Shown here one piece after another: positions 17,664-60,305 of a DNA stretch of 64,000 nt. The notes beneath the pieces were generated by a model. It made no database searches and had not been told where the DNA came from. It saw only the letters and a program-made list of their open reading frames with translations. The stretch is from a virus. Its lineage: Duplodnaviria > Heunggongvirae > Uroviricota > Caudoviricetes. The stretch is taken from IMG/VR virus record IMGVR_UViG_2861084961_000001; one strand, given 5' to 3'. How positions within the stretch are numbered: position 1 is the stretch's first letter; every line of letters begins with the position of its first letter. Made by a program: the position numbers and the translations under genes.

Positions 17664-18195
17664 CACCGCTGACAGCATACACAATCAACTGCCGCTGATA
17701 GCATATCGAGAGTCTATCTCACCGCTCACAGCATACTTTACTCGATTTTTACCGCTGACAGCATACTTAAGGCATTGCATGAATAATGTGTACCGGTATG
17801 GGTATAACCAGAACAAAATTACCGCTGGCAGCATACGAAGGTCTGACATATGCCATTAATTACCGCTGATAGCATATCCAAACAAAATTCCTCAATAAAA
17901 CACCGCTGACAGCATACGTTCTATCAGGGAGCAGCAGGCAATAAATGCCTTTCACTACAAGTAATCAGCGCAATGGCAATAGAATGTTAGTGAGCGCAAA
18001 CCTATATGGAATGCACTCTTCGAGGTTAGTAACCACTGGGGAGGTATAAAAGAGCATTGAGTGGTGATAGATGATTTACCGCTCACGGCATACGTTCATC
18101 TCACTATACCGCTGGTAGCATATCTTTAACCGTTCACAGCATACTTTTCAGAAAAATAGCCGCTGATAGCATACATTTCACCGCTGACAGCATAT
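17664..18195. repeat. iteron array: 12 direct copies of CCGCTGACAGCATAC-like 15-16 bp repeats downstream of repA (incA-like copy-control locus)
   Basis: Copies near 17666, 17692, 17722, 17752, 17822, 17863, 17903, 18079, 18109, 18130, 18160, 18181, same orientation. Confidence 0.8.
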
Positions 18196-19288
18196 CAAAG
18201 CAGTTTGAGACTATTGGAAAGGATCTCAATCATCTTGATATTTTCAGGCGTCAAATTCTGTGAAAGTTCGGTTATCTTATTGATAATGTTCTGTTTGGCA
18301 TCAATTTCCCCGGCTTTCTCATCTGGTTTTTTGGGTTCGATGTCTTCAGGTTTTGGCGGTGCGACTTTGAGTTTTGGATTGCGGCTGTGAATCTGGATAT
18401 AGATCGACCGCCCTCGCTTAATCTCGCTGTATTCGAGATAACCCAAATCTTGGAGAGCTTTTAAGCCGTTACGTATAGTCTGATTCTGCGAGCTGACATT
18501 CCTGCTACTCAAATTGAGTCGCGCACGCAATCGAGCAAGCGATACCGGCGCAGGCTTGGTTGGAAGACTTTCGATGAAGGTGTACAGAGCCTGTGCTGTT
18601 TCTTTGCGTGGTAGCTTATTGATAACCTTTAACTGTAAAAGAACCTTATGGTCAAAGCGATATAGTTCGGCCAGCTTCGGTTCTGCATAGAACACCACCG
18701 TATCTTTCTGCTCGTTGTAGTCCACGCTATTGATGAGGTGCACCATCAGAAGCGAGATCTTGTTAGAGCCGTCGACATTCTTTTCTTCATACGTTCTCTG
18801 GAAAGACAGAGTGGTACGCATAATCTTCAAAAGACTGTTTGTAAGCCGGTCGCGGAGTGTTTTGCGGATCTGTGACGATGGATAGCCACAAAACTTCGCA
18901 AATTTCGTGATGCTTAACTCGACACGACCGTTAGGTTCGCCGTATTCTGCCAGCGAACGCACAACGCCCACCCACGTTTTGAAATCATGATCCATGTCGA
19001 GACGAGGACCGGTTATCTTGATATCGGAATAGCCTTCAGAACGGGCTACTTCGAGCTGAACAAGCTCCTTTGAAGCATCGATCTCATTTGGCTTGTTACG
19101 CTTGCTGTATTTTGTCCCTTGAGCGTTGGCACGAACAACCCCAGCCGCATCAACGCAATTGGTTGGACTGTATTGTTGCTATTAGGGACAAGTTCCCCTG
19201 TGTACAATTCAAGGGAACCTTCTTCAAAGTTGTCGAGATTATCTTCTACTTCTTTGTTATTTTTACCTTTTTTATTTTTTGTGGACAT
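18195..19288 (-). CDS. repA: RepA replication initiator (P1 RepA / RepFIB family), one frameshift near 19125-19140
   Basis: Blocks match recalled P1 RepA: NSNNTVQPIALMRLGLFVP, KITGPRLDMDHDFKTWVGV, LPRKETAQALYTFIESLP, HSRNPKLK; ORFs 18195..18995 and 19046..19408 in different frames. Confidence 0.8.
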
Positions 19289-19309
19289 GTGGACACCTTT
19301 GTCATTCAA

Positions 19310-19410
19310 CCGCTGACAGCATACTTGATTTGCCGCTGGCAGCATACCAAAAACAGTTGGCAGCATACGGCGAACCGTTGACAGACTATCAATTACCGCT
19401 GGCAGCATAC
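19310..19410. repeat. five iterons of the same family spaced about 21 bp upstream of repA (origin)
   Basis: Copies near 19310, 19334, 19354, 19374 (degenerate), 19396. Confidence 0.8.
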
Positions 19411-19450
19411 ATGAACATGGCTTCAGACCAGTCGTGGCGCGGCTTACAGC

Positions 19451-49485: not shown

Positions 49486-51519
49486 ATGACCCAAGTCGCG
49501 AAGAAAATTCTGGTGACGTGCGCGCTGCCGTACGCTAACGGCTCAATCCACCTCGGCCATATGCTGGAGCACATCCAGGCTGATGTCTGGGTTCGTTACC
49601 AGCGAATGCGCGGCCACGAGGTTAATTTCATCTGTGCCGACGATGCCCACGGTACGCCGATCATGCTGAAAGCACAGCAGCTTGGTATCACACCGGAACA
49701 GATGATTGGCGAAATGAGCCAGGAACACCAGACTGATTTCGCAGGCTTTAACATCAGCTATGACAACTATCACTCGACGCACAGCGAAGAGAACCGCCAG
49801 CTGTCTGAGCTTATCTATACTCGCCTGAAAGAGAACGGTTTTATTAAAAACCGCACTATCTCTCAGTTGTACGACCCGGAAAAAGGCATGTTCCTGCCGG
49901 ATCGTTTTGTGAAAGGCACCTGTCCGAAATGTAAAGCGCCAGATCAATACGGCGATAACTGTGAAGTTTGCGGCGCGACCTACAGCCCGACTGAACTGAT
50001 TGAGCCGAAATCGGTAGTTTCTGGCGCTACGCCGGTAATGCGTGATTCTGAACACTTCTTCTTTGATCTGCCCTCTTTCAGCGAAATGTTGCAGGCATGG
50101 ACCCGCAGCGGTGCGTTGCAGGAGCAGGTGGCAAACAAAATGCAGGAGTGGTTTGAATCTGGTCTGCAACAGTGGGATATCTCCCGCGACGCACCTTACT
50201 TCGGTTTTGAAATTCCGAACGCGCCGGGTAAATATTTCTACGTCTGGCTGGACGCACCGATTGGCTACATGGGTTCCTTCAAGAATCTGTGCGACAAGCG
50301 CGGCGACACTACCAGCTTCGATGAATACTGGAAGAAAGACTCCACCGCCGAGCTGTACCACTTCATCGGTAAAGATATCGTTTACTTCCACAGCCTGTTC
50401 TGGCCTGCCATGCTGGAAGGCAGCAACTTCCGCAAGCCGACCAACCTGTTTGTTCACGGCTATGTGACGGTGAACGGCGCGAAGATGTCCAAGTCTCGCG
50501 GCACCTTTATTAAAGCCAGCACCTGGTTGAATCATTTTGACGCTGACAGCCTGCGTTACTACTACACCGCCAAACTGTCTTCGCGCATTGATGATATCGA
50601 TCTCAACCTGGAAGATTTCGTTCAGCGCGTGAATGCCGATATCGTGAACAAAGTGGTTAACCTGGCCTCCCGTAATGCGGGCTTTATCAACAAACGTTTT
50701 GACGGCGTGCTGGCAAGCGAACTGGCTGACCCGCAACTGTACAAAACCTTTACTGATGCCGCTGAAGTGATTGGCGAAGCATGGGAAAGCCGCGAATTTG
50801 GTAAAGCTATCCGTGAAATCATGGCATTGGCTGACCTGGCTAACCGCTATGTCGATGAACAGGCTCCGTGGGTGGTGGCGAAGCAGGAAGGACGCGATGC
50901 CGATCTGCAGGCGATTTGCTCTATGGGCATTAACCTGTTCCGCGTGCTGATGACTTACCTGAAACCGGTACTGCCGAAACTGACAGAACGTGCGGAAGCA
51001 TTCCTCAATACGGAACTGACCTGGGATGGCATCCAGCAACCGCTGCTGGGCCATAAAGTGAATCCGTTCAAAGCACTGTATAACCGTATCGACATGAAAC
51101 AGGTGGAAGCATTGGTGGAAGCGTCTAAAGAAGAAGTGAAAGCTACTGCCGCGCCAGTTACTGGCCCGCTGGCAGACGACCCGATTCAGGAAACCATCAC
51201 CTTTGACGACTTTGCCAAAGTTGACCTGCGCGTGGCGCTGATCGAAAACGCAGAGTTTGTTGAAGGTTCTGACAAACTGCTGCGCCTGACGCTGGATCTC
51301 GGCGGTGAAAAACGTAATGTCTTCTCAGGCATCCGTTCCGCTTATCCAGACCCACAGGCACTGATTGGCCGTCACACCATTATGGTGGCTAACCTGGCTC
51401 CGCGTAAAATGCGTTTCGGTATCTCCGAAGGCATGGTGATGGCTGCTGGCCCCGGCGGGAAAGACATCTTCCTGTTAAGCCCGGATGCTGGTGCTAAACC
51501 TGGCCACCAGGTTAAGTAA
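49486..51519 (+). CDS. metG: methionyl-tRNA synthetase, intact, host-type
   Basis: [29 protein letters not shown] (HIGH-type), KMSKS, C-terminal tRNA-binding domain; start at ATG 49486 inside track ORF 49357..51519. Confidence 0.95.
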
Positions 51520-51540
51520 TTAAGCAACCATTCTTCACAA

Positions 51541-51566
51541 TGCCCGGCAATACGCTGGGCATTTTC
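51541..51566 (+). terminator. rho-independent terminator after metG
   Basis: TGCCCGGC-AATAC-GCTGGGCA plus TTTT. Confidence 0.6.
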
Positions 51567-51602
51567 ATATAGACACAATCCCTTCTGACTTTAACAAACC
51601 CT

Positions 51603-51668
51603 AAAACAATTTGTTTTCTGCCTTTTGTTGATTGAGATAATAAGCCACATAAGAAAACAAATTGTTTC
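51603..51668. promoter_or_regulatory. two motif B palindromes (AAAACAA-T-TTGTTTT and GAAAACAAATTGTTTC)
   Basis: Immediately right of the metG terminator, upstream of 51681 gene. Confidence 0.45.
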
Positions 51669-51680
51669 GGAGTGGTTGAA

Positions 51681-51980
51681 ATGTTGAACATTACCCAAGC
51701 CTACCAGGTGGCATTGATCAGTTCATCTCATACATCAGAGGAAGATGCTCGCCGATTCATGATCGCAAGCAATGAGCTGGATTGGGTTTCGCAAATTGAC
51801 GGCGGTTGTATTGTCCACGCCGGGTTACAGGATGATGTCTGGAAAGACGACTTGCGTCGATATGGTATATCCGAAGGCGCGATTGCTAACATTCAGAAAG
51901 TACTTGATGTAGGCTTTGACTCTGTACATTTTGATTGTGGTGCGCCGGTCGTTGAAGGGCTTGAGTGCTGGAACTGGTAA
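51681..51980 (+). CDS. hypothetical protein (99 aa)
   Basis: ATG 51681 within track ORF 51672..51980; motif-B sites upstream. Confidence 0.4.
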   Translation: MLNITQAYQVALISSSHTSEEDARRFMIASNELDWVSQIDGGCIVHAGLQDDVWKDDLRRYGISEGAIANIQKVLDVGFDSVHFDCGAPVVEGLECWNW

Positions 51981-52025
51981 CAGATATTAAAGCATTGGTA
52001 GTTTGTTTTTAGGATTATCAAAGAA

Positions 52026-52759
52026 ATGAAAAAGTTGAAAAGTTTAGAAATCCCTGGGACTGGTTATAAATTCTTTATGGACAACGCGGAGTGTGCGCCT
52101 AACGCGTTGGAAAAAATACAAAGTCTTATCAACAGCCTTACTGAAGAAGCGAAAGAACTGAAGAGCGAGGCGACAAAGGACAATACAGCTAAAATCCAAT
52201 GCTTAAATCTCGTCTCTTATTGTTTATATCAAGTATCCAAAACACTGATTAAAGGCAATATCTATTACGACGATGAAGACACCTCGACACCTGAAGAAAA
52301 GATAGCGATGAAGAACTCTATGAAGATATCTCTACTAGTGCGGGTCACGCTGCCTTCGATGCTATGGGTAAATCGTCAGGCATCAGATCATTTGTTGAAC
52401 AGAACAATTCGACAATAATGATTGAGTACTGTGAACAAACAAGCTCCAAGGCCATACATGTTCTTCACGATGTTGCTGCAGGGGTTCGTTGTGAGGCTGA
52501 AGCGGTAAGAAAAGATGTATTTGGTGCAGACAGTAATACCGTGAAAGCGTTTATCAACAGTGCTCTGCTAAATTCTTACTCAAACCTTATAGTCAATGCG
52601 GCACTATGCGCAAATTCAGGTGAAGAACACATTGTCATAACCGAAACCAAACATGAGCATCAACAGTCACCAACCATAGAAGAGGTAACTGCATTGGCTA
52701 TCAAACAGGCGAGTGAAATTAGTGATGAAATTCTCTCTCTGCTAAACAAAACTAGGTAA
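52026..52759 (+). CDS. hypothetical protein (ORFs 52026..52418 and 52364..52759, probably one gene)
   Basis: ORF track; overlapping frames. Confidence 0.35.
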
Positions 52760-52869
52760 AACATTGATAATGGCGGTCACAATTTGATTCTTTTCTATAA
52801 GAATCCGTTGATCGCCACTACTCCCCTTCCATACCTGCAATCACATCCTTAAATATCAATAGGTTGTAG

Positions 52870-53660
52870 TTGTTTATACAAACAAGAAAACAACTGAATA
52901 ACAGATCAACGAAACGTCAACGCTTTCACCCGATTTGGTCTAAAAAATTGACGTTTTCACACATCACTTCTTATACCCGCAATCCTACGCAGCAGACAGC
53001 GCCACAGCGTCCAATTTTCACCACAGACGACCCAACACACCACCAACAAAAACACACGCTCAAAATCGCTCTCGTTGCGTTACATAACCATATAAACAAC
53101 TTATTTTCAGGCATAACAAAACAACTAAATAACACATACGCAATTCCCAAAAACAACCAACCTCTTTATTGCAGGCTACCGAAAAGACCCACCTCTTCTT
53201 CCCAGGCTACCGGACAACCAACCTAACTTTCACAGGCAATCCGAAAACATTCATGCGCGCGATACCCACGACACGCCATTCCCCAAACAGCGAAGAAACA
53301 CCTGAACCACCGAAACCCCAACGAAGCCTGTAACCGCAAGGATTCTCTCAATCCCAAAAGACACGAAACATAACAATCACGGGAAACGCCATTACCCAAT
53401 ACACGAATAACTACAAAAGCCTTTCACACACTCCAGACAAACAACTCAAACACAATAACGAAAGGAATCGCCCACCTGCCATTACTCCATACACGGAGAA
53501 GAACAAGCACCAAAACGACGAGAACATCCCACAGAAGAACCACCGCAAAACTAACGAAACCATTTACACCGACAGAGAGAACAACACACCCAATTCACCA
53601 ACAGAATTAGTCGCCGTATAGAACGTTCTGGAAGGAGTGAGCATTAACGTCCATAGAGAG
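52870..53660. repeat. strand-asymmetric CA-rich non-coding region containing CAGGCTACCG-type direct repeats
   Basis: Plus strand almost free of G or T runs for about 800 bp; only ORF there is low-complexity; repeats near 53170, 53200, 53235. Confidence 0.45.
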
Positions 53661-53779
53661 GTTGAGACAGATAAAACACGAAGAAAACACAACATGTATA
53701 GCGAAGAAGCCAGGTATGTATAAGTGGGGAGGGAAGGAGGGGTGTCGCCTCCTTTTTCGTATTTATTCAACTCCTGATT

Positions 53780-53960
53780 TTATCCCCCGTAACACCCCTA
53801 CGGTCAGCCTTCGGTCCATACAGGGAAAGGCTGCATCCCGCTACAGAAACGGCTGGGTTGCCTTTGGGGAACGGCTGGAGGTTTTCAGGGAAACGGTCGA
53901 GTTGCCTTTGTGGATTTCGGGAAAAGGCTCGATGCCGGTTCAGGAACGGCGGCGTACCGG
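53780..53960. repeat. array of about six GGGAAACGGCT-like direct repeats spaced 22-30 bp
   Basis: CAGGGAAAGGCTG, CAGAAACGGCTGG, GGGAACGGCTGG, GGGAAACGGTCG, GGGAAAAGGCTCG, CAGGAACGGCGG. Confidence 0.45.
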
Positions 53961-54286
53961 TATAGCGAGAGGGAGAGTTGCGGCTACCCACCTGTAATGT
54001 GCGGGAAGAAGAGAGGCGCTCACGTGCAGGCGGACTTGCTTACCGCTGGATTCCCTCTGAATGCCCAGCTACAGCGTAATTGTGCCAGACAGCCAACGGG
54101 TCACGATCGATTTCAGTAGGTTTTCGGGGAGAGGATTATTCTGTCCACCAGCCACCTTCGGCCACTAAATCAGAATAATGTAAAAAGTGTACTCGGTACT
54201 GAACCTGAAAACTCACTGCCAAAACCACATTCACCGGAATAAAATCCTTTTTCGCCTGTGCGTTATTGCGATAATAACACCAACAA

Positions 54287-54301
54287 GAAAACATGTTGTT
54301 T
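54287..54301. promoter_or_regulatory. motif B palindrome (GAAAACATGTTGTTT)
   Basis: Upstream of 54314 gene. Confidence 0.4.
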
Positions 54302-54313
54302 AAGGATTGCTTT

Positions 54314-54643
54314 ATGTTTGCACATATCGACATCAACCAAATTAAGAAATTGACTCAAAAAGAGTTTGACCAGTTCTATGAGCTGGAAGGTTGGTCTTCC
54401 ACTCTGATTAATTCAAGATGGGTGCTGGAGCTGATGACTCGTGATGACGCACCTGCTTTGATGATTAGCGACCTGGGTGAAGATGCTGACTTTATGGATA
54501 TGAGCGAATTTTGTGTGGACACATACAACCGCAGCCAGAAGTACTACTTCACATGCGATAGCGAGAATGACGTGATTTCTAAGGTCTATCTTCACCTCGT
54601 CCAGCATTGGGACGTTCAGGAGTTTCTTGAGGTATTCGCGTAA
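54314..54643 (+). CDS. hypothetical protein (109 aa)
   Basis: ATG 54314 inside track ORF 54293..54643; motif-B site upstream. Confidence 0.4.
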   Translation: MFAHIDINQIKKLTQKEFDQFYELEGWSSTLINSRWVLELMTRDDAPALMISDLGEDADFMDMSEFCVDTYNRSQKYYFTCDSENDVISKVYLHLVQHWDVQEFLEVFA

Positions 54644-54769
54644 ACCAATCAAAGCCAGCATTGCTGGCTTAATTTCTCTATAGCCGCAGGGAGGAACCTG
54701 CATATCGCTCATGCACCTGATCAATATGCTTTGTAGCCGTTTTCTTACTGGTATTATTTACGCCATTGA

Positions 54770-54783
54770 GAAAACAAGTTGTT
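54770..54783. promoter_or_regulatory. motif B palindrome (AAAACAA-G-TTGTTT)
   Basis: Upstream of 54796 gene. Confidence 0.45.
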
Positions 54784-54795
54784 TACGGAGTTGTG

Positions 54796-55107
54796 ATGAA
54801 AAAATCATTGGTTCTTGGTCTGGACAAAGACCAGAAGAGAAAAGAGAAGCCTGCACTGGTTGCTCAATTAACTTTGCTGGACATCGTTGCCAATGGAACC
54901 TCTATTCGTCTGTTCCGTGAAACAGCGGTGTCTTTCGATAAAAACACCTTTACTCGTTATGTAATGAATGTTCGTCGCCAGCGTGGAAAAGGCTGGGTGG
55001 CATTTCAAAGAATGTGGCCGGAACATCAGCTCGAACTGGCTTTGATGGAAGTTAACCGCGTGGCCCAGCAAGAAATTCAGAGAGCATCAGTGATGGCAAT
55101 AGCCTGA
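54796..55107 (+). CDS. hypothetical basic protein (103 aa)
   Basis: ATG 54796 inside track ORF 54766..55107; motif-B site upstream. Confidence 0.4.
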   Translation: MKKSLVLGLDKDQKRKEKPALVAQLTLLDIVANGTSIRLFRETAVSFDKNTFTRYVMNVRRQRGKGWVAFQRMWPEHQLELALMEVNRVAQQEIQRASVMAIA

Positions 55108-55140
55108 TAATGTGCAAGTGGTAATTAGTCGACAGTACGA

Positions 55141-55171
55141 CAGCCCCGCCATCCTTACGGGGCTTTTTTGT
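55141..55171 (+). terminator. rho-independent terminator CAGCCCCG-loop-GGGGCT plus T6
   Basis: Stem plus TTTTTT. Confidence 0.6.
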
Positions 55172-55233
55172 ATTGTAAGTACATACCTACGACTATAAAA
55201 TAGAAAAATAACCAATACACTACGGAGAGTGAA

Positions 55234-55629
55234 ATGACCGTTAAACGCGAAAAACTGACAGTTGATGTTTACTATGCCTCTGAAACTGCCGAAGGTAAGA
55301 ATGTGGCAAAAATCACCGTTGTTACGTACAACACCGAAACTGGTGCCGAAGTCCAGGCCAGTACGATCGTGCGTAAAGGTGATGCCTCCGGCGGCGAGTA
55401 CGCGACTCAATACCAGTCCATTCTCGATGCAACTGACCCACTGCTGCTGAAAATCGAGAACTACTTCCGCCAGGTTGATGAAGAGGTGTTTGAAACCATG
55501 ATGAGTATGGTTAATTCCGTATTCACCTCCAGCCTGAACACTAGCACCACCTGGATTGGCCAGTACGGTCTGCGCATTACCTCCGGCATTCCTGCTGACA
55601 CCTTAATCCCTGAAAGCGTATTCGCTTAA
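55234..55629 (+). CDS. hypothetical protein (131 aa)
   Basis: ORF track; RBS GGAGAG. Confidence 0.45.
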   Translation: MTVKREKLTVDVYYASETAEGKNVAKITVVTYNTETGAEVQASTIVRKGDASGGEYATQYQSILDATDPLLLKIENYFRQVDEEVFETMMSMVNSVFTSSLNTSTTWIGQYGLRITSGIPADTLIPESVFA

Positions 55630-55638
55630 TCCTCTTTA

Positions 55639-55664
55639 AATGGCGCGTAAACCGCGCCATTTTC
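55639..55664 (+). terminator. rho-independent terminator AATGGCGCG-TAAAC-CGCGCCATT plus TTC
   Basis: Perfect 9-bp stem. Confidence 0.55.
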
Positions 55665-55673
55665 TTATGCCCG

Positions 55674-55690
55674 ATAACAATTTGTTTTCT
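55674..55690. promoter_or_regulatory. motif B palindrome (AACAA-T-TTGTT)
   Basis: Upstream of 55747 gene. Confidence 0.4.
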
Positions 55691-55746
55691 GCCTTATCTG
55701 ATTTGTGAAAATGATTTCACTGAAGCAACTTAATAAGGAAACCATC

Positions 55747-56121
55747 ATGGGACTTGATATCTATATCGAGACGCAGCCTAAAAACGATCTGAATAACGAG
55801 GCATCCAGAAAGCGGGTTGCTTACTTCCGTAAGTTCAATGCGCTCGTTGGGTGGATGGAGCGCAACGTAGGTGAAGTCGAAAATTGTGAGCTTTTAGAAT
55901 TAACGATGAATGACATTTGTTTTCTGAAGGCTCATTTGATGCACATAAATGAAAGTAATTGCGAAGAGTACTTGCCTACCCGGGAAGGTTTTTTCTTCGG
56001 CAGTCAGGAGTACGATGAAGGTTACTGGCATGACGTGGATAAGCTGAAAAAACTTGTGGAAGACCTGATCATGAACCACGACTTTCACAATAACAGACTG
56101 ACCTTCTGCGCCTGGTGGTAA
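55747..56121 (+). CDS. hypothetical protein (124 aa)
   Basis: ATG 55747 inside track ORF 55705..56121. Confidence 0.4.
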   Translation: MGLDIYIETQPKNDLNNEASRKRVAYFRKFNALVGWMERNVGEVENCELLELTMNDICFLKAHLMHINESNCEEYLPTREGFFFGSQEYDEGYWHDVDKLKKLVEDLIMNHDFHNNRLTFCAWW

Positions 56122-56124
56122 ATA

Positions 56125-56268
56125 TGGGCGATTTCAAGAAACGCCTGAAGGAAAGAGCCGAGATGGTCAGAAAGCGAAACGCCTATTCTGTCATCAGATA
56201 CGCAAGGCAGTTTAGTCGCAACAACAAATCAGTTGAGGAAAAGATCCTTAGCGTAATCGGGCGATAAT
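56125..56268 (+). CDS. small basic ORF (47 aa)
   Basis: Read from sequence; followed by hairpin AAGACCACC-AGCAT-TGGTGGTCTT at 56273-56296. Confidence 0.25.
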
Positions 56269-56436
56269 TATTAAGACCACCAGCATTGGTGGTCTTAAAT
56301 GACCATCCTGTTTCCCGCAGGCTAAAAACACCAACCTCTTACCTCCAGGCAACCGACAAACCCACCTGTTCCCGTCAGGCTACCGCAACTTTCCACTTTG
56401 ACGCCTTATTCGTACAACGATAATTAACGCCAACAA

Positions 56437-56451
56437 GAAAACAATTTGTTA
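56437..56451. promoter_or_regulatory. motif B palindrome (GAAAACAATTTGTTA)
   Basis: Upstream of 56472 gene. Confidence 0.4.
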
Positions 56452-56471
56452 TTTACGATAAGGAATTAATC

Positions 56472-56954
56472 ATGAATTTTATCGCTACTGTAAACGCACC
56501 CGCACATGGCAATATCGCTGTAACGTTCTCTGACATTGAAAAACGAGTACTTGGTGCCTGGCGTCACAATGAGACGGTAGAACTGTCAGCACAAGAAAAA
56601 TGCATTATTGCACGCGACATCATTGGCAATCGTCGTTACTCGCGGGTATTTGAGAAAGCGTATGTGGTAAATTCTGGATTCGGAACGTTCGTCTTTCCGG
56701 TGCGCTCCGGGCGATTCTGCCAGTCCAAGCTGATTGAGTTCGCTACGCAGATTTCTGTCTGGATTAAAACTCAATCGTCGTTCAAATTTTCCGACGATGA
56801 AGCAGTATCGCAGGGGATGCGGATCGCCAACAATGCAATTAAATGCAAAAACATTACGTATACCGCTGGCGTTGATACATGGAAACTGTTTTGCGCTAAC
56901 TTTATGCTGAATGTATACGCAAGCAACCGCATCCACATCCTTGATGGCGTGTAA
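56472..56954 (+). CDS. hypothetical protein (160 aa)
   Basis: ORF track; motif-B site upstream; followed by hairpin AGGGCC-AGAAAC-GGCCCT. Confidence 0.45.
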   Translation: MNFIATVNAPAHGNIAVTFSDIEKRVLGAWRHNETVELSAQEKCIIARDIIGNRRYSRVFEKAYVVNSGFGTFVFPVRSGRFCQSKLIEFATQISVWIKTQSSFKFSDDEAVSQGMRIANNAIKCKNITYTAGVDTWKLFCANFMLNVYASNRIHILDGV

Positions 56955-57570
56955 CTGAGAAGAGGGCCAGAAACGGCCCTTTCTCTATAGCCACCAGCTG
57001 CCGCAGGGAAATTTTCAGAAACGGCGAGGAACGTATTCATGAGCCGACGGGAAACGGCCAGGATTTTTTTCGGGAAACGGCTGTATTCGCCTTTATGTAG
57101 AAAAACATCGGGAAGCTGGTGGAATCCAACCAGCGGTTGTCGGACAGGTGAGCGGGGAAAATTATAATGACTTTCGTCGCCTGAGACATCCAGATTTCTT
57201 TCGTAGCATAATCACATACGTGATTAAGTGGTGTGATTATGTGAAAAATCACGCGCACATAATACGCGATCGGACACAGAACAAAACAAAATGCCGATCC
57301 GCACCGACAAATACACGCTGATCACATAGCAAGACTAAAAGCCAATGATTAACCATACTCTATAGCGCAATATAACGCGCTTTAAGCGCGTTAATGTGTT
57401 AAGTAATGGGTATGTACTGGCGAGGATATAAAAGCGCGACTATGGCGTTATTTTGGCGCTTATTTTTATGTTGTTGGAGTGAGTTAAAGACAATAAATAA
57501 CGCGCCAATGATGGCGCGTTATGGTGGGAGTATTGGAAACGAAAAAAGCGCCCATAGTGGGCGCTCGATT

Positions 57571-57798
57571 TTATTTATGTAAACTGATTTCAAATCCCAT
57601 TTCTACGAACGCTTTTAACATTAAAAATATATCAGCGTCGTTCACGTCTGCTTTTTTTCGCTCCTGGTCGCTCAATAAGTCAATTTTGCGCGTCGTTTCA
57701 TCTATAAGCTCAACAGATCCAGCGTAACCAGCGATCCCAGCAATATCATTAACACAATATTCATTGTGGACGTTAACGCCAGCGATAAGAACAAACAT
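57571..57798 (-). CDS. hypothetical protein (75 aa)
   Basis: ORF track; followed on minus strand by hairpin AGCGCCCA-TAG-TGGGCGCT and T-run. Confidence 0.35.
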   Translation of the reverse strand: MFVLIAGVNVHNEYCVNDIAGIAGYAGSVELIDETTRKIDLLSDQERKKADVNDADIFLMLKAFVEMGFEISLHK

Positions 57799-57819
57799 GA
57801 TTAAGCTCCTTAAAAAAAA

Positions 57820-58023
57820 TTAAATAGAATTTTGAAGTTTTCCGATTAATGCGCTTAAGCGTAAGTATTCACGTTTGCGCTTGCAATCTCGCTTGCTGTT
57901 AAGCAAATCAGAAAACGTAAAATTTAATTGGTCGCGTTGCGCGATCAAATCATCGATTAATTCCAGTTTGTAAGCGCGATACTTTGCGCGATATTCCGCG
58001 CGGATCTTGTCATAGCTGACCAT
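57820..58023 (-). CDS. hypothetical protein (67 aa)
   Basis: ORF track; strong AAGGAG RBS. Confidence 0.35.
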   Translation of the reverse strand: MVSYDKIRAEYRAKYRAYKLELIDDLIAQRDQLNFTFSDLLNSKRDCKRKREYLRLSALIGKLQNSI

Positions 58024-58070: not shown

Positions 58071-58720
58071 TTACGCTTTGAAAGCATCAGCTAGATAATT
58101 GTAGAAATCATTCTTGATAAAGCGATATTGCTGCGTACCAGCTTTGGCGCTTCCCATTCCTTTGACTTTCTCAACAAGTCCAAGACGTTCGCAAAGATTG
58201 ATCAACTGGTTGGCTTGAGTATAGCCAGCGTCCAATTTAATTTCGCACGCTTTTTTAGCTTCATTCATCAAATCGAAAACAGCGCCATTAGTGAACGTGT
58301 CGATCTCGTCGTTAATCATATCGATTAAAGCGAATACACGAGATCCAGACATATCAGCGACGGAATAAACACATTTACCAGCTTTAATGGATTTAACCAG
58401 ATAAACCAGTTTTCCAGTGAATAACTATTAGTCATAGCATCACGGAAAAATACTTCTGGCGCTTGTTTGCTTGCTTTAATCGCATAGTAGAAAACAGAGC
58501 ATAATTTTTCGTCTTCTACAGCGTTTACAACGTTGTTGATGAAGTAAGCAAGTTTAGTGGTCGCAGCTTGCATATTTGCTTTGTCTGCTTTAGTGTGCGT
58601 ACCATTTTTATAATGTTCGTTATATGTTTGAGTTGCCAGATCTGCTTTTTCGCGCAGCTCGTCGGATACAATAGATGCAGCTTCAATGATGGACTTTTTA
58701 GAAATGATAATGTTAGCCAT
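58071..58720 (-). CDS. hypothetical protein (ORFs 58325..58720 and 58071..58352, probably one gene)
   Basis: ORF track; overlapping frames. Confidence 0.35.
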
Positions 58721-59353: not shown

Positions 59354-59836
59354 CTATTTTTCTACCGTTCTCGACACGTAGTGTAACCTGACAAGCATCT
59401 GCGCCTGCTGACACCCCTCAATTTCACGGCCATCCGCCATGTACACTCTTATAGATTTGTTTGCTTTATAGGCTTGGTTGCAAATAGCAAAAAAATCGCG
59501 GCGTGATGGCCGATTATCGACATAATCAGGATGAACTGTTAATCGACCTTTGAAATCGTGAGCGATACTGTCAACCACACCTGATTCAATTGTACTAATG
59601 CGTTCAAGTGGGAGCCTTATACGATTTTCTTTGTCAAAAGGGGCTGGGCAAAGGTCAACTTTGTTACGAGATGGCATGAGGCCATAAACGTACATGCAAA
59701 ACGCCTGGCCATCTTCCAGAGTGGCCCTTACAGGAATTTGTTCTCTGCGCCAGAACATCAGTAGTTTTTCAACGTTAGTGTAATCTCGCGGCCAGAGTTC
59801 AGCTTGGATACCGTAGGTAATATCTTTGGTTGTCAT
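59354..59836 (-). CDS. hypothetical protein (160 aa)
   Basis: Internal ATG 59836 directly after the upstream stop inside track ORF 59354..59914. Confidence 0.4.
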   Translation of the reverse strand: MTTKDITYGIQAELWPRDYTNVEKLLMFWRREQIPVRATLEDGQAFCMYVYGLMPSRNKVDLCPAPFDKENRIRLPLERISTIESGVVDSIAHDFKGRLTVHPDYVDNRPSRRDFFAICNQAYKANKSIRVYMADGREIEGCQQAQMLVRLHYVSRTVEK

Positions 59837-59840
59837 GTCA

Positions 59841-60305
59841 TCACAGAGTTGTTGGCAGAATGTCGATGTCGCCAGAATTGCTGGTGAACACCCTGAACGC
59901 TTTTGTGTCTCCATTCTTCAGAGTCGTTTCTCGCTCTTGACGAGCGGGGTTTAGAGCACATAAACCTGCACCTTCAAGAGATGCACCCACAATTAATTCT
60001 CCGGCATTTAAATGGAAAGTCGCTTTTTCGCCTGTAGCCAGTTTTGCGACAGTTTCGCCGTTGATGAAAATGGAAGCATCACATCCAGCTCCTACAAAAC
60101 CTGTGTCTCTCATTACCACCAACGTAGCTGGCGCTGCGCTTTGATACTTGAACACTTTGGCCTGCGGTGCTGGTTTGGCGTCATGGATTGATATTGGGCG
60201 TGATTGGCACGCGGTAAGCATCAACACTGGTAACGTTAGTAGAGGGAGAAGCGAGTATTTCATGATAGTTTTAGAACAGAAAGTGAACAGTATGGGAGAC
60301 TTCAT
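59841..60305 (-). CDS. lipoprotein (lipobox LTAC), Gly/Ala-rich beta-type
   Basis: MKYSLLPLLTLPVLMLTAC signal with lipobox; RBS AGGGAGA before ATG 60305. Confidence 0.5.
   Translation of the reverse strand: MKSPILFTFCSKTIMKYSLLPLLTLPVLMLTACQSRPISIHDAKPAPQAKVFKYQSAAPATLVVMRDTGFVGAGCDASIFINGETVAKLATGEKATFHLNAGELIVGASLEGAGLCALNPARQERETTLKNGDTKAFRVFTSNSGDIDILPTTL

What the first reader, a model, noticed from the sequence alone, without database searches (positions are those of the whole stretch)
56310..56400. Three C-rich CAGGC(T/A)ACCG direct repeats spaced about 27 bp
CCCGCAGGCTAAAAACACC, CCTCCAGGCAACCGACAAA and CCCGTCAGGCTACCGCAAC lie just upstream of a motif-B promoter. They match the repeats inside the CA-rich region at 53170-53250. 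Regularly spaced direct repeats upstream of a promoter suggest an activator binding array.
Basis: seen in the sequence. Interest (0 to 1): 0.4.

Follow-up and report, generated by a model that had tools for sequence, protein, structure and literature searches.

The report
Conserved bipartite repeat array, phage-plasmid
Three head-to-tail copies of a 25-base two-part motif sit just upstream of a small-gene promoter in an SSU5-type phage-plasmid, recur once 3 kb away, and are strongly conserved across hundreds of enterobacterial plasmids, so they are almost certainly a functional binding array, but what binds them and what they do remain unknown.

Summary
The repeats are real. It occurs three times at 56303/56331/56361 (spacing 28 and 30) and three times at 53157/53188/53218, all on the + strand. 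A degenerate pattern gives 5 hits against 0.07 expected. No other copy exists in the window or in about 107 kb of the related phage Cyrano.

The window is an SSU5-like phage-plasmid. The array is present in 763 PLSDB plasmids and 239 of 5426 complete E. coli genomes, always on plasmids and never annotated.

Units 1-2 are as conserved (0.88-0.94 pairwise identity) as the -35, -10 and operator of the adjacent promoter. Third codon positions of the downstream gene score 0.585. In the paralogous array the two blocks are conserved and the 5-nt spacers are not.

They are not RepA iterons and not type III antitoxin repeats. A classical phased activator array is unlikely, because the distance to the promoter varies (84-96 bp) and the second array has no promoter beside it.

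Best reading (about 0.4): a sequence-specific protein-binding array on DNA, tied to the downstream promoter module. Main rival (about 0.3): an RNA-level element in C-rich untranslated RNA. The binder is unidentified.

The parts
56303..56327 (+). Array 2, unit 1: CCATCCTGTT-TCCCG-CAGGCTAAAA. Block B and the following AAAAACA linker are highly conserved. Block A is less conserved, and some relatives have a recombination junction inside it.
   Evidence: pairwise column identity block A 0.71, block B 0.90; junctions in L030/L077
56331..56355 (+). Array 2, unit 2: CCAACCTCTT-ACCTC-CAGGCAACCG. This is the best-conserved unit.
   Evidence: identity block A 0.94, spacer 0.88, block B 0.88
56361..56385 (+). 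Array 2, unit 3: CCCACCTGTT-CCCGT-CAGGCTACCG. It is degenerate in Klebsiella/Salmonella-type relatives and deleted in L069.
   Evidence: identity 0.60-0.75
53157..53242 (+). Array 1, the paralogous copy: three units at 53157-53181, 53188-53212 and 53218-53242, embedded in the CA-rich non-coding region.
   Evidence: blocks A 0.94/0.84/0.74, spacers 0.58/0.52/0.50, blocks B 0.89/0.92/0.77; kept, in altered form, in the most distant relative L084 as three CAGGCA copies about 30 nt apart
56271..56298 (+). 12-bp perfect hairpin TTAAGACCACCA-gcat-TGGTGGTCTTAA directly upstream of array 2. It has no T-run, and its loop and stem carry a Chi sequence (CCACCAGC). It is the only CCACC...GGTGG hairpin in the window.
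   Evidence: (I16); conserved in most relatives but separated from the array by an inserted gene in L030/L077
56398..56450 (+). 'Motif B' promoter-like element: TTGACG (56398-56403), a 15-bp spacer, GATAAT (56419-56424), then the palindromic operator-like site AGAAAACAATTTGTT (56436-56450).
   Evidence: D3; 22 matches against 1.3 expected in the window; identity -35 0.86, -10 1.0, operator 0.95. The generic promoter scan did not call it because of the 15-bp spacer.
56472..56954 (+). Downstream gene of 160 aa (PHROG 1641, function unknown). It is the gene with which array 2 always travels.
52960..53650 (+). CA-rich non-coding region that hosts array 1 (A 39%, C 34%, G 12%, T 15%). It is preceded by the conserved promoter-like TTGACG (52948-52953)-18-TATACC (52972-52977).
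   Evidence: RNA fold no better than shuffles (z -0.24); expression at floor in the LF82 lysogen (CYRAN_103)
53731..53757 (+). Intrinsic-terminator-like hairpin plus T-run that closes the CA-rich unit.
   Evidence: pairing potential conserved in 9 relatives, with one-sided changes only

Best explanation
The array is a cis-acting recognition site on duplex DNA for a dedicated sequence-specific protein that has not been identified. That protein is most likely encoded by the phage-plasmid. Each 30-bp unit offers two conserved 10-bp blocks separated by a spacer whose sequence is free. Two well-conserved units and a weaker third lie head to tail about three helical turns apart, so several protomers could bind cooperatively. 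The array belongs to the promoter module of the 160-aa gene at 56472-56954. The same protein would also occupy the paralogous array 3.1 kb upstream, inside the CA-rich transcription unit, which would allow coordinated control or bridging of the two sites.

Shown: the repeats, their uniqueness, their block-wise conservation, and their linkage to the downstream promoter and gene.

Inferred: that the ligand is a protein, that it acts on DNA, and that the effect is on transcription. The sign of the effect (activation, anti-repression, insulation or looping) is not determined. A class-I-type activator with fixed geometry is unlikely.
For: The array is statistically real and unique to two loci.

Units 1-2 are as conserved as the -35, -10 and operator (0.88-0.94), against 0.585 at third codon positions and 0.72 in the promoter spacer.

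In array 1 the blocks are conserved (0.84-0.94) and the 5-nt spacers are not (0.50-0.58). This is the signature of a bipartite recognition site.

In array 2 the variable columns have balanced base composition (T .26, C .25, A .25, G .24). The C-richness therefore comes from the motif itself and not from a general compositional constraint.

The array stays with the downstream promoter and gene through at least five different left-hand contexts. It does so even when a minus-strand gene is inserted between the hairpin and the array.

It lies downstream of a hairpin across which RNA level falls about 9-fold in Cyrano (CYRAN_109 57.9 to CYRAN_110 6.7), so it is probably poorly transcribed.

The array diverges in the most distant relative (51% protein identity). 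That fits a co-evolving element-encoded binder.

CYRAN_111, the gene behind the array, is the most expressed of the neighbouring motif-B genes in the lysogen (25.5 against 5.7-17).
Against: No binding protein was identified. The downstream 160-aa protein has no recognisable DNA-binding fold, and the neighbouring small proteins have no informative family.

Block centres are about 15 bp apart, on opposite faces of B-DNA. This is unusual for a single protomer.

Both arrays lie in the sense orientation of local transcription. Array 1 lies inside a 700-nt strand-asymmetric non-coding unit, which is more naturally an RNA or single-strand property.

The 90-nt window over array 2 is the second most extreme C-over-G stretch on the + strand of the whole window.

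The distance from unit 2 to the start codon is 141 nt in both major sequence types although the promoter position shifts by 7 bp.
Confidence: 0.4

Rival explanations
1. RNA-level element. The arrays work in the transcript, within C-rich, G-poor, unstructured untranslated RNA. They would either be loading sites for Rho, insulating the regulated promoter from upstream read-through, or tandem binding sites for an RNA-binding protein. In the second case the CA-rich roughly 770-nt RNA would act as a protein target or sponge.
For: Both arrays are in the sense strand of the local genes.

Array 1 lies in a 700-nt region with GC skew -0.45 to -0.57. This composition is conserved across relatives while the sequence drifts. 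The region is bounded by a conserved promoter-like site and a terminator. Its RNA folds no better than shuffles.

Array 2 is the second strongest C-over-G window in 64 kb (C 38, G 12 in 90 nt). It follows a stable hairpin without a T-run. From my own knowledge, not tested here, that is the reported architecture of processed Rho-dependent 3' ends.

The array-to-ATG distance is constant at 141 nt in the two major types although the promoter shifts.

The element encodes an FljA-family protein. A second repeat in the CA-rich RNA shares ACCCAATAC with the E. coli fliC 5' UTR.
Against: Rho loading needs composition, not sequence. Yet the blocks are conserved to 0.9, while variable columns of array 2 are not G-depleted.

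In Cyrano the RNA drop occurs across the same type of hairpin without any array behind it.

In L030/L077 an oppositely oriented gene separates the array from upstream + strand genes.

The CA-rich region is at the detection floor in lysogen RNA-seq.

No Rfam family matches.

Sequences complementary to the anti-Shine-Dalgarno-like block A, which would be its pairing targets, are not enriched in the window (13 against 9.75 expected).
Confidence: 0.3
2. Classical upstream activator array. An activator bound to the three repeats contacts RNA polymerase at the motif-B promoter, whose 15-bp spacer makes it intrinsically weak.
For: The array ends 12 bp upstream of the -35. The three aligned motif-B promoters (54246, 54729 and 56396) all share the suboptimal 15-bp spacing (D3). 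CYRAN_111 is more expressed than neighbouring motif-B genes.
Against: The distance from the conserved units to the -10 varies (84, 88, 92, 94, 95, 96, 65 bp). The proximal unit is the least conserved. Array 1 has no promoter downstream. Other motif-B promoters lack the array.
Confidence: 0.15
3. Replication, partition or recombination site. The two arrays would be iteron-like sites of a second (lytic) origin with a distant cis element, as in P4 ori/crr. Alternatively they would be accessory sites of a site-specific recombinase, acting on two directly repeated three-subsite arrays.
For: There are two arrays in direct orientation 1.4-4.5 kb apart in relatives, each with three subsites. The element carries its own helicase, primase, polymerase and T4-like recombination genes, but no lytic origin has been identified. 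AT-rich operator-containing DNA flanks each array.
Against: The RepA (Rep3) gene at 18195-18995 has its own, unrelated 21-bp-spaced iterons ACCGCTGACAGCATAC on both sides. Partition modules differ between family members (type Ib ParA in Cyrano, P1-like ParAB in pMT1) while the array is constant. No replication or recombinase gene is adjacent. The integrase lies about 55 kb away in Cyrano.
Confidence: 0.1
4. Type III toxin-antitoxin-like locus. The tandem repeats would encode a processed antitoxin RNA, and the downstream 160-aa protein would be the ToxN-like endoribonuclease.
For: A tandem array of about 30 nt x 3 lies immediately upstream of a gene of about 160 aa. An orphan second array could act as pseudo-antitoxin.
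Against: The confident model of the 160-aa protein (pLDDT 92) has no similarity to ToxN, AbiQ or CptN or to any solved structure. There is no PADLOC or Pfam hit. A promoter-like element, not a terminator, lies between the repeats and the gene. The units are G-poor and form no stable fold.
Confidence: 0.02

Closest known systems
Plasmid iteron arrays (P1/RepFIB RepA iterons in oriR and incA)
   Same: Head-to-tail direct repeats in a phage-plasmid. There are two separated clusters. The units are asymmetric with two conserved halves. Clusters could be bridged.
   Different: The period is 28-31 bp instead of about 21-22. The arrays are 35 kb from repA, whose own iterons have an unrelated sequence. 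No initiator gene is adjacent.
Upstream binding arrays of head-to-tail transcription factors (OmpR/PhoB boxes, MalT boxes, AraC-family sites)
   Same: Direct repeats upstream of a weak sigma-70-type promoter, with conserved blocks separated by free spacers.
   Different: The unit is much longer. The distance to the promoter is not fixed. The proximal site is the weakest. A second copy lacks a promoter. No such regulator is found nearby.
Satellite phage P4 ori/crr
   Same: Two clusters of direct repeats a few kb apart, both in non-coding DNA, in a phage-plasmid.
   Different: P4 repeats are octamers bound by the alpha primase-helicase. Nothing links these arrays to replication.
Rho utilisation (rut) sites and Rho-dependent terminators
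   Same: An extreme C-over-G untranslated stretch of about 90 nt on the sense strand, following a hairpin without a U-run.
   Different: rut sites are defined by composition. Here specific 10-nt blocks are conserved, and the variable positions are not G-depleted.
Lambda nut / rrn boxA antitermination sites
   Same: Two sites per genome in the sense orientation. Unit 2 contains CUCUUAC, identical to the lambda nutR boxA core (recalled from my own knowledge).
   Different: The boxA-like heptamer is present in one unit only and is not conserved in array 1 of relatives. There is no boxB-like hairpin. No terminator-rich operon lies downstream of array 2.
Type III antitoxin RNA repeats (ToxI, AntiQ, CptI)
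   Same: Tandem repeats of about 30 nt directly upstream of a small gene.
   Different: The downstream protein is not ToxN-like. A promoter, not a terminator, lies in between.

Membership tests
Plasmid iterons (Rep3/RepFIB type) | Repeats flank or adjoin the rep gene or origin and match the initiator's iteron sequence | tested here: not met
   The Rep3_N protein at 18195-18995 is flanked by at least 15 copies of ACCGCTGACAGCATAC, often 21 bp apart. The C-rich unit is unrelated and lies 35 kb away.
Plasmid iterons (Rep3/RepFIB type) | Period of about two helical turns (19-23 bp) | tested here: not met
   Periods are 28, 30, 31 and 30 bp.
Class I-type upstream activator sites | Fixed, helically phased distance to the core promoter | tested here: not met
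   The distance from unit 2 to the -10 is 84, 88, 92, 94, 95, 96 or 65 bp among 69 unique upstream sequences.
Class I-type upstream activator sites | An activator protein binds the sites and raises transcription | not testable with these tools
   No candidate regulator was identified. There is only indirect lysogen RNA-seq evidence.
Sequence-specific binding-site array (generic) | Recognition blocks conserved, spacers free, under purifying selection relative to neutral sites | tested here: met
   Blocks score 0.84-0.94 against spacers at 0.50-0.58 in array 1. Units 1-2 of array 2 score 0.88-0.94 against 0.585 at third codon positions.
Rho-dependent terminator / rut site | C-rich, G-poor stretch of about 80 nt in untranslated, unstructured sense RNA | tested here: met
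   C 38 and G 12 in 90 nt, the second most extreme window on the + strand. Predicted structure beyond the upstream hairpin is minimal.
Rho-dependent terminator / rut site | Transcripts end there in a Rho-dependent (bicyclomycin-sensitive) manner | not testable with these tools
   There are no Term-seq or bicyclomycin data. In Cyrano the RNA drop occurs at a hairpin lacking the array.
Type III toxin-antitoxin | The downstream protein has the ToxN/AbiQ endoribonuclease fold | tested here: not met
Type III toxin-antitoxin | Promoter upstream of the repeats and a terminator between the repeats and the toxin gene | tested here: not met
   A hairpin precedes the repeats, and a promoter-like element lies between the repeats and the gene.
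boxA/nut antitermination site | boxA consensus (GCUCUUUA / CGCUCUUA) conserved, followed by a boxB hairpin | tested here: not met
   CUCUUAC occurs only in unit 2 of array 2. Other units and relatives read CUCUUCC, CUGUUU or CUCAUU. No hairpin is predicted.
ops / JUMPstart (RfaH recruitment) | GGCGGTAGnnTG on the non-template strand of the regulated operon | tested here: not met
   The reverse complement of block B (CGGTAGCCTG) matches 10 of 12 ops positions. It lies on the minus strand, which is the template strand for all local genes. The ops consensus is recalled from my own knowledge.
Known RNA families (Rfam 15) | Covariance-model match | tested here: not met
   There are no hits at the gathering threshold in the window, and none at E of 1 or less in 51000-58000.

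The most novel reading that the evidence does not exclude
The two arrays and the 700-nt CA-rich region would be parts of an undescribed regulatory RNA system of SSU5-type phage-plasmids. A long, deliberately unstructured C/A-rich transcript would carry tandem recognition motifs for RNA-binding proteins. The ACCCAATAC-type repeats would serve the element's FljA-family repressor, and the bipartite C-rich units would serve a second factor or Rho. The RNA would act as a protein sponge or anti-repressor that switches the motif-B regulon. Array 2 would put the 160-aa gene under the same control. This would also suggest that Salmonella FljA-fliC control derives from a phage-plasmid circuit.
Probability: 0.15. 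Interest if true: 0.7.

Novelty: new variant of a known kind. Interest (0 to 1): 0.4.

Why it matters
SSU5-type phage-plasmids (pHCM2 of S. Typhi, pMT1 of Y. pestis, pLF82/Cyrano, pKPHS1-like Klebsiella plasmids) are common in clinical Enterobacteriaceae, and their regulation is essentially uncharted.

This array is one of the most conserved non-coding sequences in the element. It is unannotated in 239 complete E. coli genomes and 763 PLSDB plasmids.

Together with the genome-wide motif-B operator and the CA-rich region, it defines a regulatory layer that could control the lysogeny-to-lysis switch or accessory-gene expression. Identifying its ligand would give a handle on that switch.

As it stands, it is a solid candidate cis-element of unknown mechanism, not a new principle.

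Tried and rejected
- **RepA iterons.** Rejected. repA has its own unrelated iterons.
- **Partition site.** The par locus of Cyrano shows no related repeats, and AGGCTA is not enriched (22 against 16 expected). Partition modules differ among relatives that share the array.
- **Type III TA.** Rejected on the fold of the downstream protein and on PADLOC.
- **Known RNA family.** None found.
- **Structured RNA.** The CA-rich transcript folds no better than shuffles (z -0.24). The array plus leader gives z -0.13.
- **Anti-Shine-Dalgarno mimic pairing in trans.** Complementary sites are not enriched.
- **boxA/nut and ops resemblances.** These do not hold across units, or the element is on the wrong strand.
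- **Chromosomal or host copies.** None; all 260 E. coli places are on plasmids.
- **Y. pestis pMT1 sRNAs sR082 and sR083** (PMC3770706). They map near ymt, not to this region.
- **Literature on SSU5, pHCM2 or phage-plasmid repeats.** Nothing relevant was found.
- **FljA homologue search, intended to find distant elements for co-occurrence analysis.** It returned only the same plasmid family.
- **afdb50 fold library.** Unavailable.

Full report
**Context**

The window is 96-98% identical over the tested stretch to Escherichia phages Cyrano, CMS-2020a and PhiR41_1. It is about 80% identical to Klebsiella phage-plasmids. Cyrano is described as an SSU5-like phage-plasmid (PMC9928086).

The finding lies in a run of small + strand genes of unknown function. 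That last element occurs 22 times in the window against 1.3 expected. It is therefore a genome-wide operator-like site.

Downstream, on the minus strand, lie an FljA-family regulator (PF03614), a UvsW-like helicase and ParB_N proteins.

**Observation**

The three copies exist as described. In register the unit is bipartite: block A CCAMCCTSTT, a 5-nt spacer, and block B CAGGCWACCG. The units start at 56303, 56331 and 56361, so the spacing is 28 and 30.

A second triplet starts at 53157, 53188 and 53218, with spacing 31 and 30. A degenerate pattern finds 5 sites against 0.07 expected.

A weight matrix scores the six units at 24-34 bits. Nothing else in the window, or in 107 kb of Cyrano, exceeds 16 bits. 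All copies are on the + strand.

**Conservation**

- 77 IMG/VR loci encoding relatives of the downstream 160-aa protein (66-99% identity) nearly all carry both arrays. Array 2 usually sits at about -169, -141 and -111 from the start codon.
- The array matches 763 PLSDB plasmids of about 100-120 kb. They come from Klebsiella, Escherichia, Enterobacter, Yersinia (pMT1), Salmonella, Citrobacter and Cronobacter.
- It also matches 239 of 5426 complete E. coli genomes. It is never chromosomal and never annotated.
- Among 18 representatives whose genes are at most 97% identical, I measured mean pairwise column identity. Unit 2 scores 0.94 for block A, 0.88 for the spacer and 0.88 for block B. Unit 1 block B scores 0.90, and unit 3 scores 0.60-0.75.
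- For comparison, the same alignment gives 0.86 for the -35, 1.0 for the -10 and 0.95 for the operator. The promoter spacer scores 0.72 and third codon positions 0.585.
- In array 1 the blocks are conserved (A 0.94/0.84/0.74; B 0.89/0.92/0.77). The spacers are not (0.58/0.52/0.50).
- The most distant relative (51% protein identity) keeps the architecture in altered sequence. It has three CAGGCA copies about 30 nt apart in its CA-rich region and a rearranged array upstream of the gene.

Together this is strong evidence for a functional, sequence-specific bipartite element.

**What it is not**

- *RepA iterons.* The Rep3-type repA at 18195-18995 is flanked by its own iterons, ACCGCTGACAGCATAC.
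- *The partition site.* Partition modules differ between Cyrano and pMT1, while the array is constant.
- *A known RNA family*.
- *A type III toxin-antitoxin locus.* The downstream protein gives a confident model (pLDDT 92) with no analogue in the PDB or BFVD and no Pfam or PADLOC match.

**Is it an activator array?**

Three points favour this reading:
- The array ends 12 bp before the -35.
- The three aligned motif-B promoters share a suboptimal 15-bp spacer.
- In LF82 lysogen RNA-seq the gene behind the array (CYRAN_111, 25.5 normalised reads) exceeds neighbouring motif-B genes (5.7-17).

Five points count against it:
- The distance from the conserved unit 2 to the -10 is 88 bp in 28 unique sequences and 95 bp in 26. 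In others it is 92, 94, 96 or 84 bp, and 65 bp where unit 3 is deleted.
- The proximal unit is the least conserved.
- Array 1 has no promoter behind it.
- Only one of about 15 motif-B sites carries the array.
- No activator candidate emerged.

**DNA or RNA?**

Evidence for DNA:
- The array travels with the downstream promoter and gene through at least five different left-hand contexts.
- In L030 and L077 a minus-strand 90-aa gene is inserted between the hairpin and the array, with the junction inside unit 1.
- In Cyrano the RNA level falls 9-fold across the same type of hairpin without an array behind it.
- Variable columns of array 2 are not G-depleted. The C-richness therefore belongs to the motif.

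Evidence for RNA:
- Both arrays are in the sense orientation.
- Array 1 is embedded in a 700-nt region of extreme strand asymmetry (A+C up to 76%, unique in the window). Its composition, but not its sequence, is conserved.
- That region is bounded by a conserved promoter-like site and a terminator-like hairpin.
- Its RNA is predicted to be unstructured.
- Array 2 is the second most extreme C-over-G window on the + strand. It follows a hairpin without a T-run.
- The distance from unit 2 to the ATG is 141 nt in both major types, because a 7-nt insertion upstream of the -35 is offset by a 7-nt deletion in the 5' UTR.

I weigh these at about 0.4 for a duplex-DNA protein-binding array tied to the promoter module. 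The RNA-level role gets about 0.3, and the remaining alternatives get less.

**Resemblances recalled but not sustained**

These comparisons rest on consensus sequences recalled from my own knowledge.
- The reverse complement of block B (CGGTAGCCTG) matches the ops/JUMPstart consensus at 10 of 12 positions. It lies on the template strand of the local genes.
- Block A resembles the 16S 3' end and boxA. The resemblance is not conserved across units, and complementary targets are not enriched.

**Verdict**

The element is a conserved, unannotated, bipartite tandem array present at exactly two loci of a widespread phage-plasmid family.

It is not supported in the strict sense of a phased activator sites.

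The ligand and the effect are unknown. Interest is moderate.

Noticed in passing
window 52960-53650 (flanks 52797-53765): About 700 nt of non-coding DNA with extreme strand asymmetry (A 39%, C 34%, G 12%, T 15%; GC skew to -0.57). It is the only such region in 64 kb. The composition is conserved in all relatives while much of the sequence drifts. It is preceded by the conserved TTGACG (52948-52953)-18-TATACC and closed by a terminator-like hairpin at 53731-53757. Cyrano annotates an ORF here (CYRAN_103) that is at the RNA-seq floor in lysogens.
   Followed up: partly
window 53273-53297, 53388-53406, 53478-53496; L089 (E. coli K-12 fliC 5' UTR): A second conserved repeat family in the CA-rich region (GCCATTACCCAATACACGG). 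Its core ACCCAATAC is identical to a 9-mer in the E. coli fliC 5' UTR (GGAAACCCAATACGTAATC). The element encodes an FljA-family protein (59354-59914, minus strand). From my own knowledge, FljA is reported to bind the fliC mRNA leader. The repeats are retained in plasmids of non-flagellated Klebsiella, so the target may be internal.
   Followed up: partly
window, e.g. 13185, 37703, 38430, 51605, 51652, 54769, 55676, 56436: The palindromic operator-like site AGAAAACAAnTTGTT occurs 22 times (both strands counted) against 1.3 expected. It usually lies just after a GATAAT -10, and also at the parA promoter of Cyrano. It looks like the genome-wide operator, or a 5'-UTR site, of a global repressor.
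   Followed up: partly
window 5157, 16228, 54145, 56277, 56991, 57115 and others: Chi (GCTGGTGG) occurs 14 times against 1.3 expected. One copy lies in the hairpin directly upstream of array 2. In relatives the loop of that hairpin carries Chi in either orientation.
   Followed up: partly
window 52026-52759 and 58071-58720: Two genes appear split by frameshifts relative to their PHROG families and to Cyrano and PhiR41_1. These are phrog_20845 (52026-52418 plus 52364-52759) and phrog_1513 (58071-58352 plus 58325-58720). They are either pseudogenes or sequencing errors.
   Followed up: no
window 56115-56267: An ORF of 47-50 aa that is very rich in Arg and Lys (GDFKKRLKERAEMVRKRNAY...). It corresponds to CYRAN_109, one of the most expressed Cyrano genes in the lysogen, and lies immediately upstream of the hairpin and array. 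It is absent at this position in Klebsiella-type relatives.
   Followed up: no
window 53846-53950 (GC-rich 53780-54130): A GC-rich island (58% G+C) just after the CA-rich unit, with four copies of a GAAACGGCTGG-type repeat at 22-31-bp spacing. Coding status is unclear, and the region is replaced by other sequence in several relatives.
   Followed up: no
window 17665-18203 and 19309-19418: Classical iteron arrays (ACCGCTGACAGCATAC; three of the copies right of repA, 19333-19409, are spaced 21 bp) on both sides of the Rep3-type repA at 18195-18995. This is the plasmid origin region.
   Followed up: yes
window 52912-52920 and 52948-52956: A conserved 9-bp inverted repeat, AAACGTCAA / TTGACGTTT. 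Its right arm is the -35 of the promoter-like site heading the CA-rich unit. It may be an operator for a further regulator.
   Followed up: no
L030 4497-4850 and L077 4491-4850: In two relatives a minus-strand 90-aa gene with no Pfam match is inserted between the hairpin and array 2. The right junction falls between block A and block B of unit 1 in both.
   Followed up: partly
window 56472-56954: The 160-aa protein behind the array gives a confident AlphaFold model (pLDDT 92, pTM 0.81) with no structural analogue in PDB or BFVD. It has invariant Cys83, and Cys125, Cys141, His12 and His155 conserved in at least 90% of homologues. It is restricted to SSU5-type elements.
   Followed up: partly
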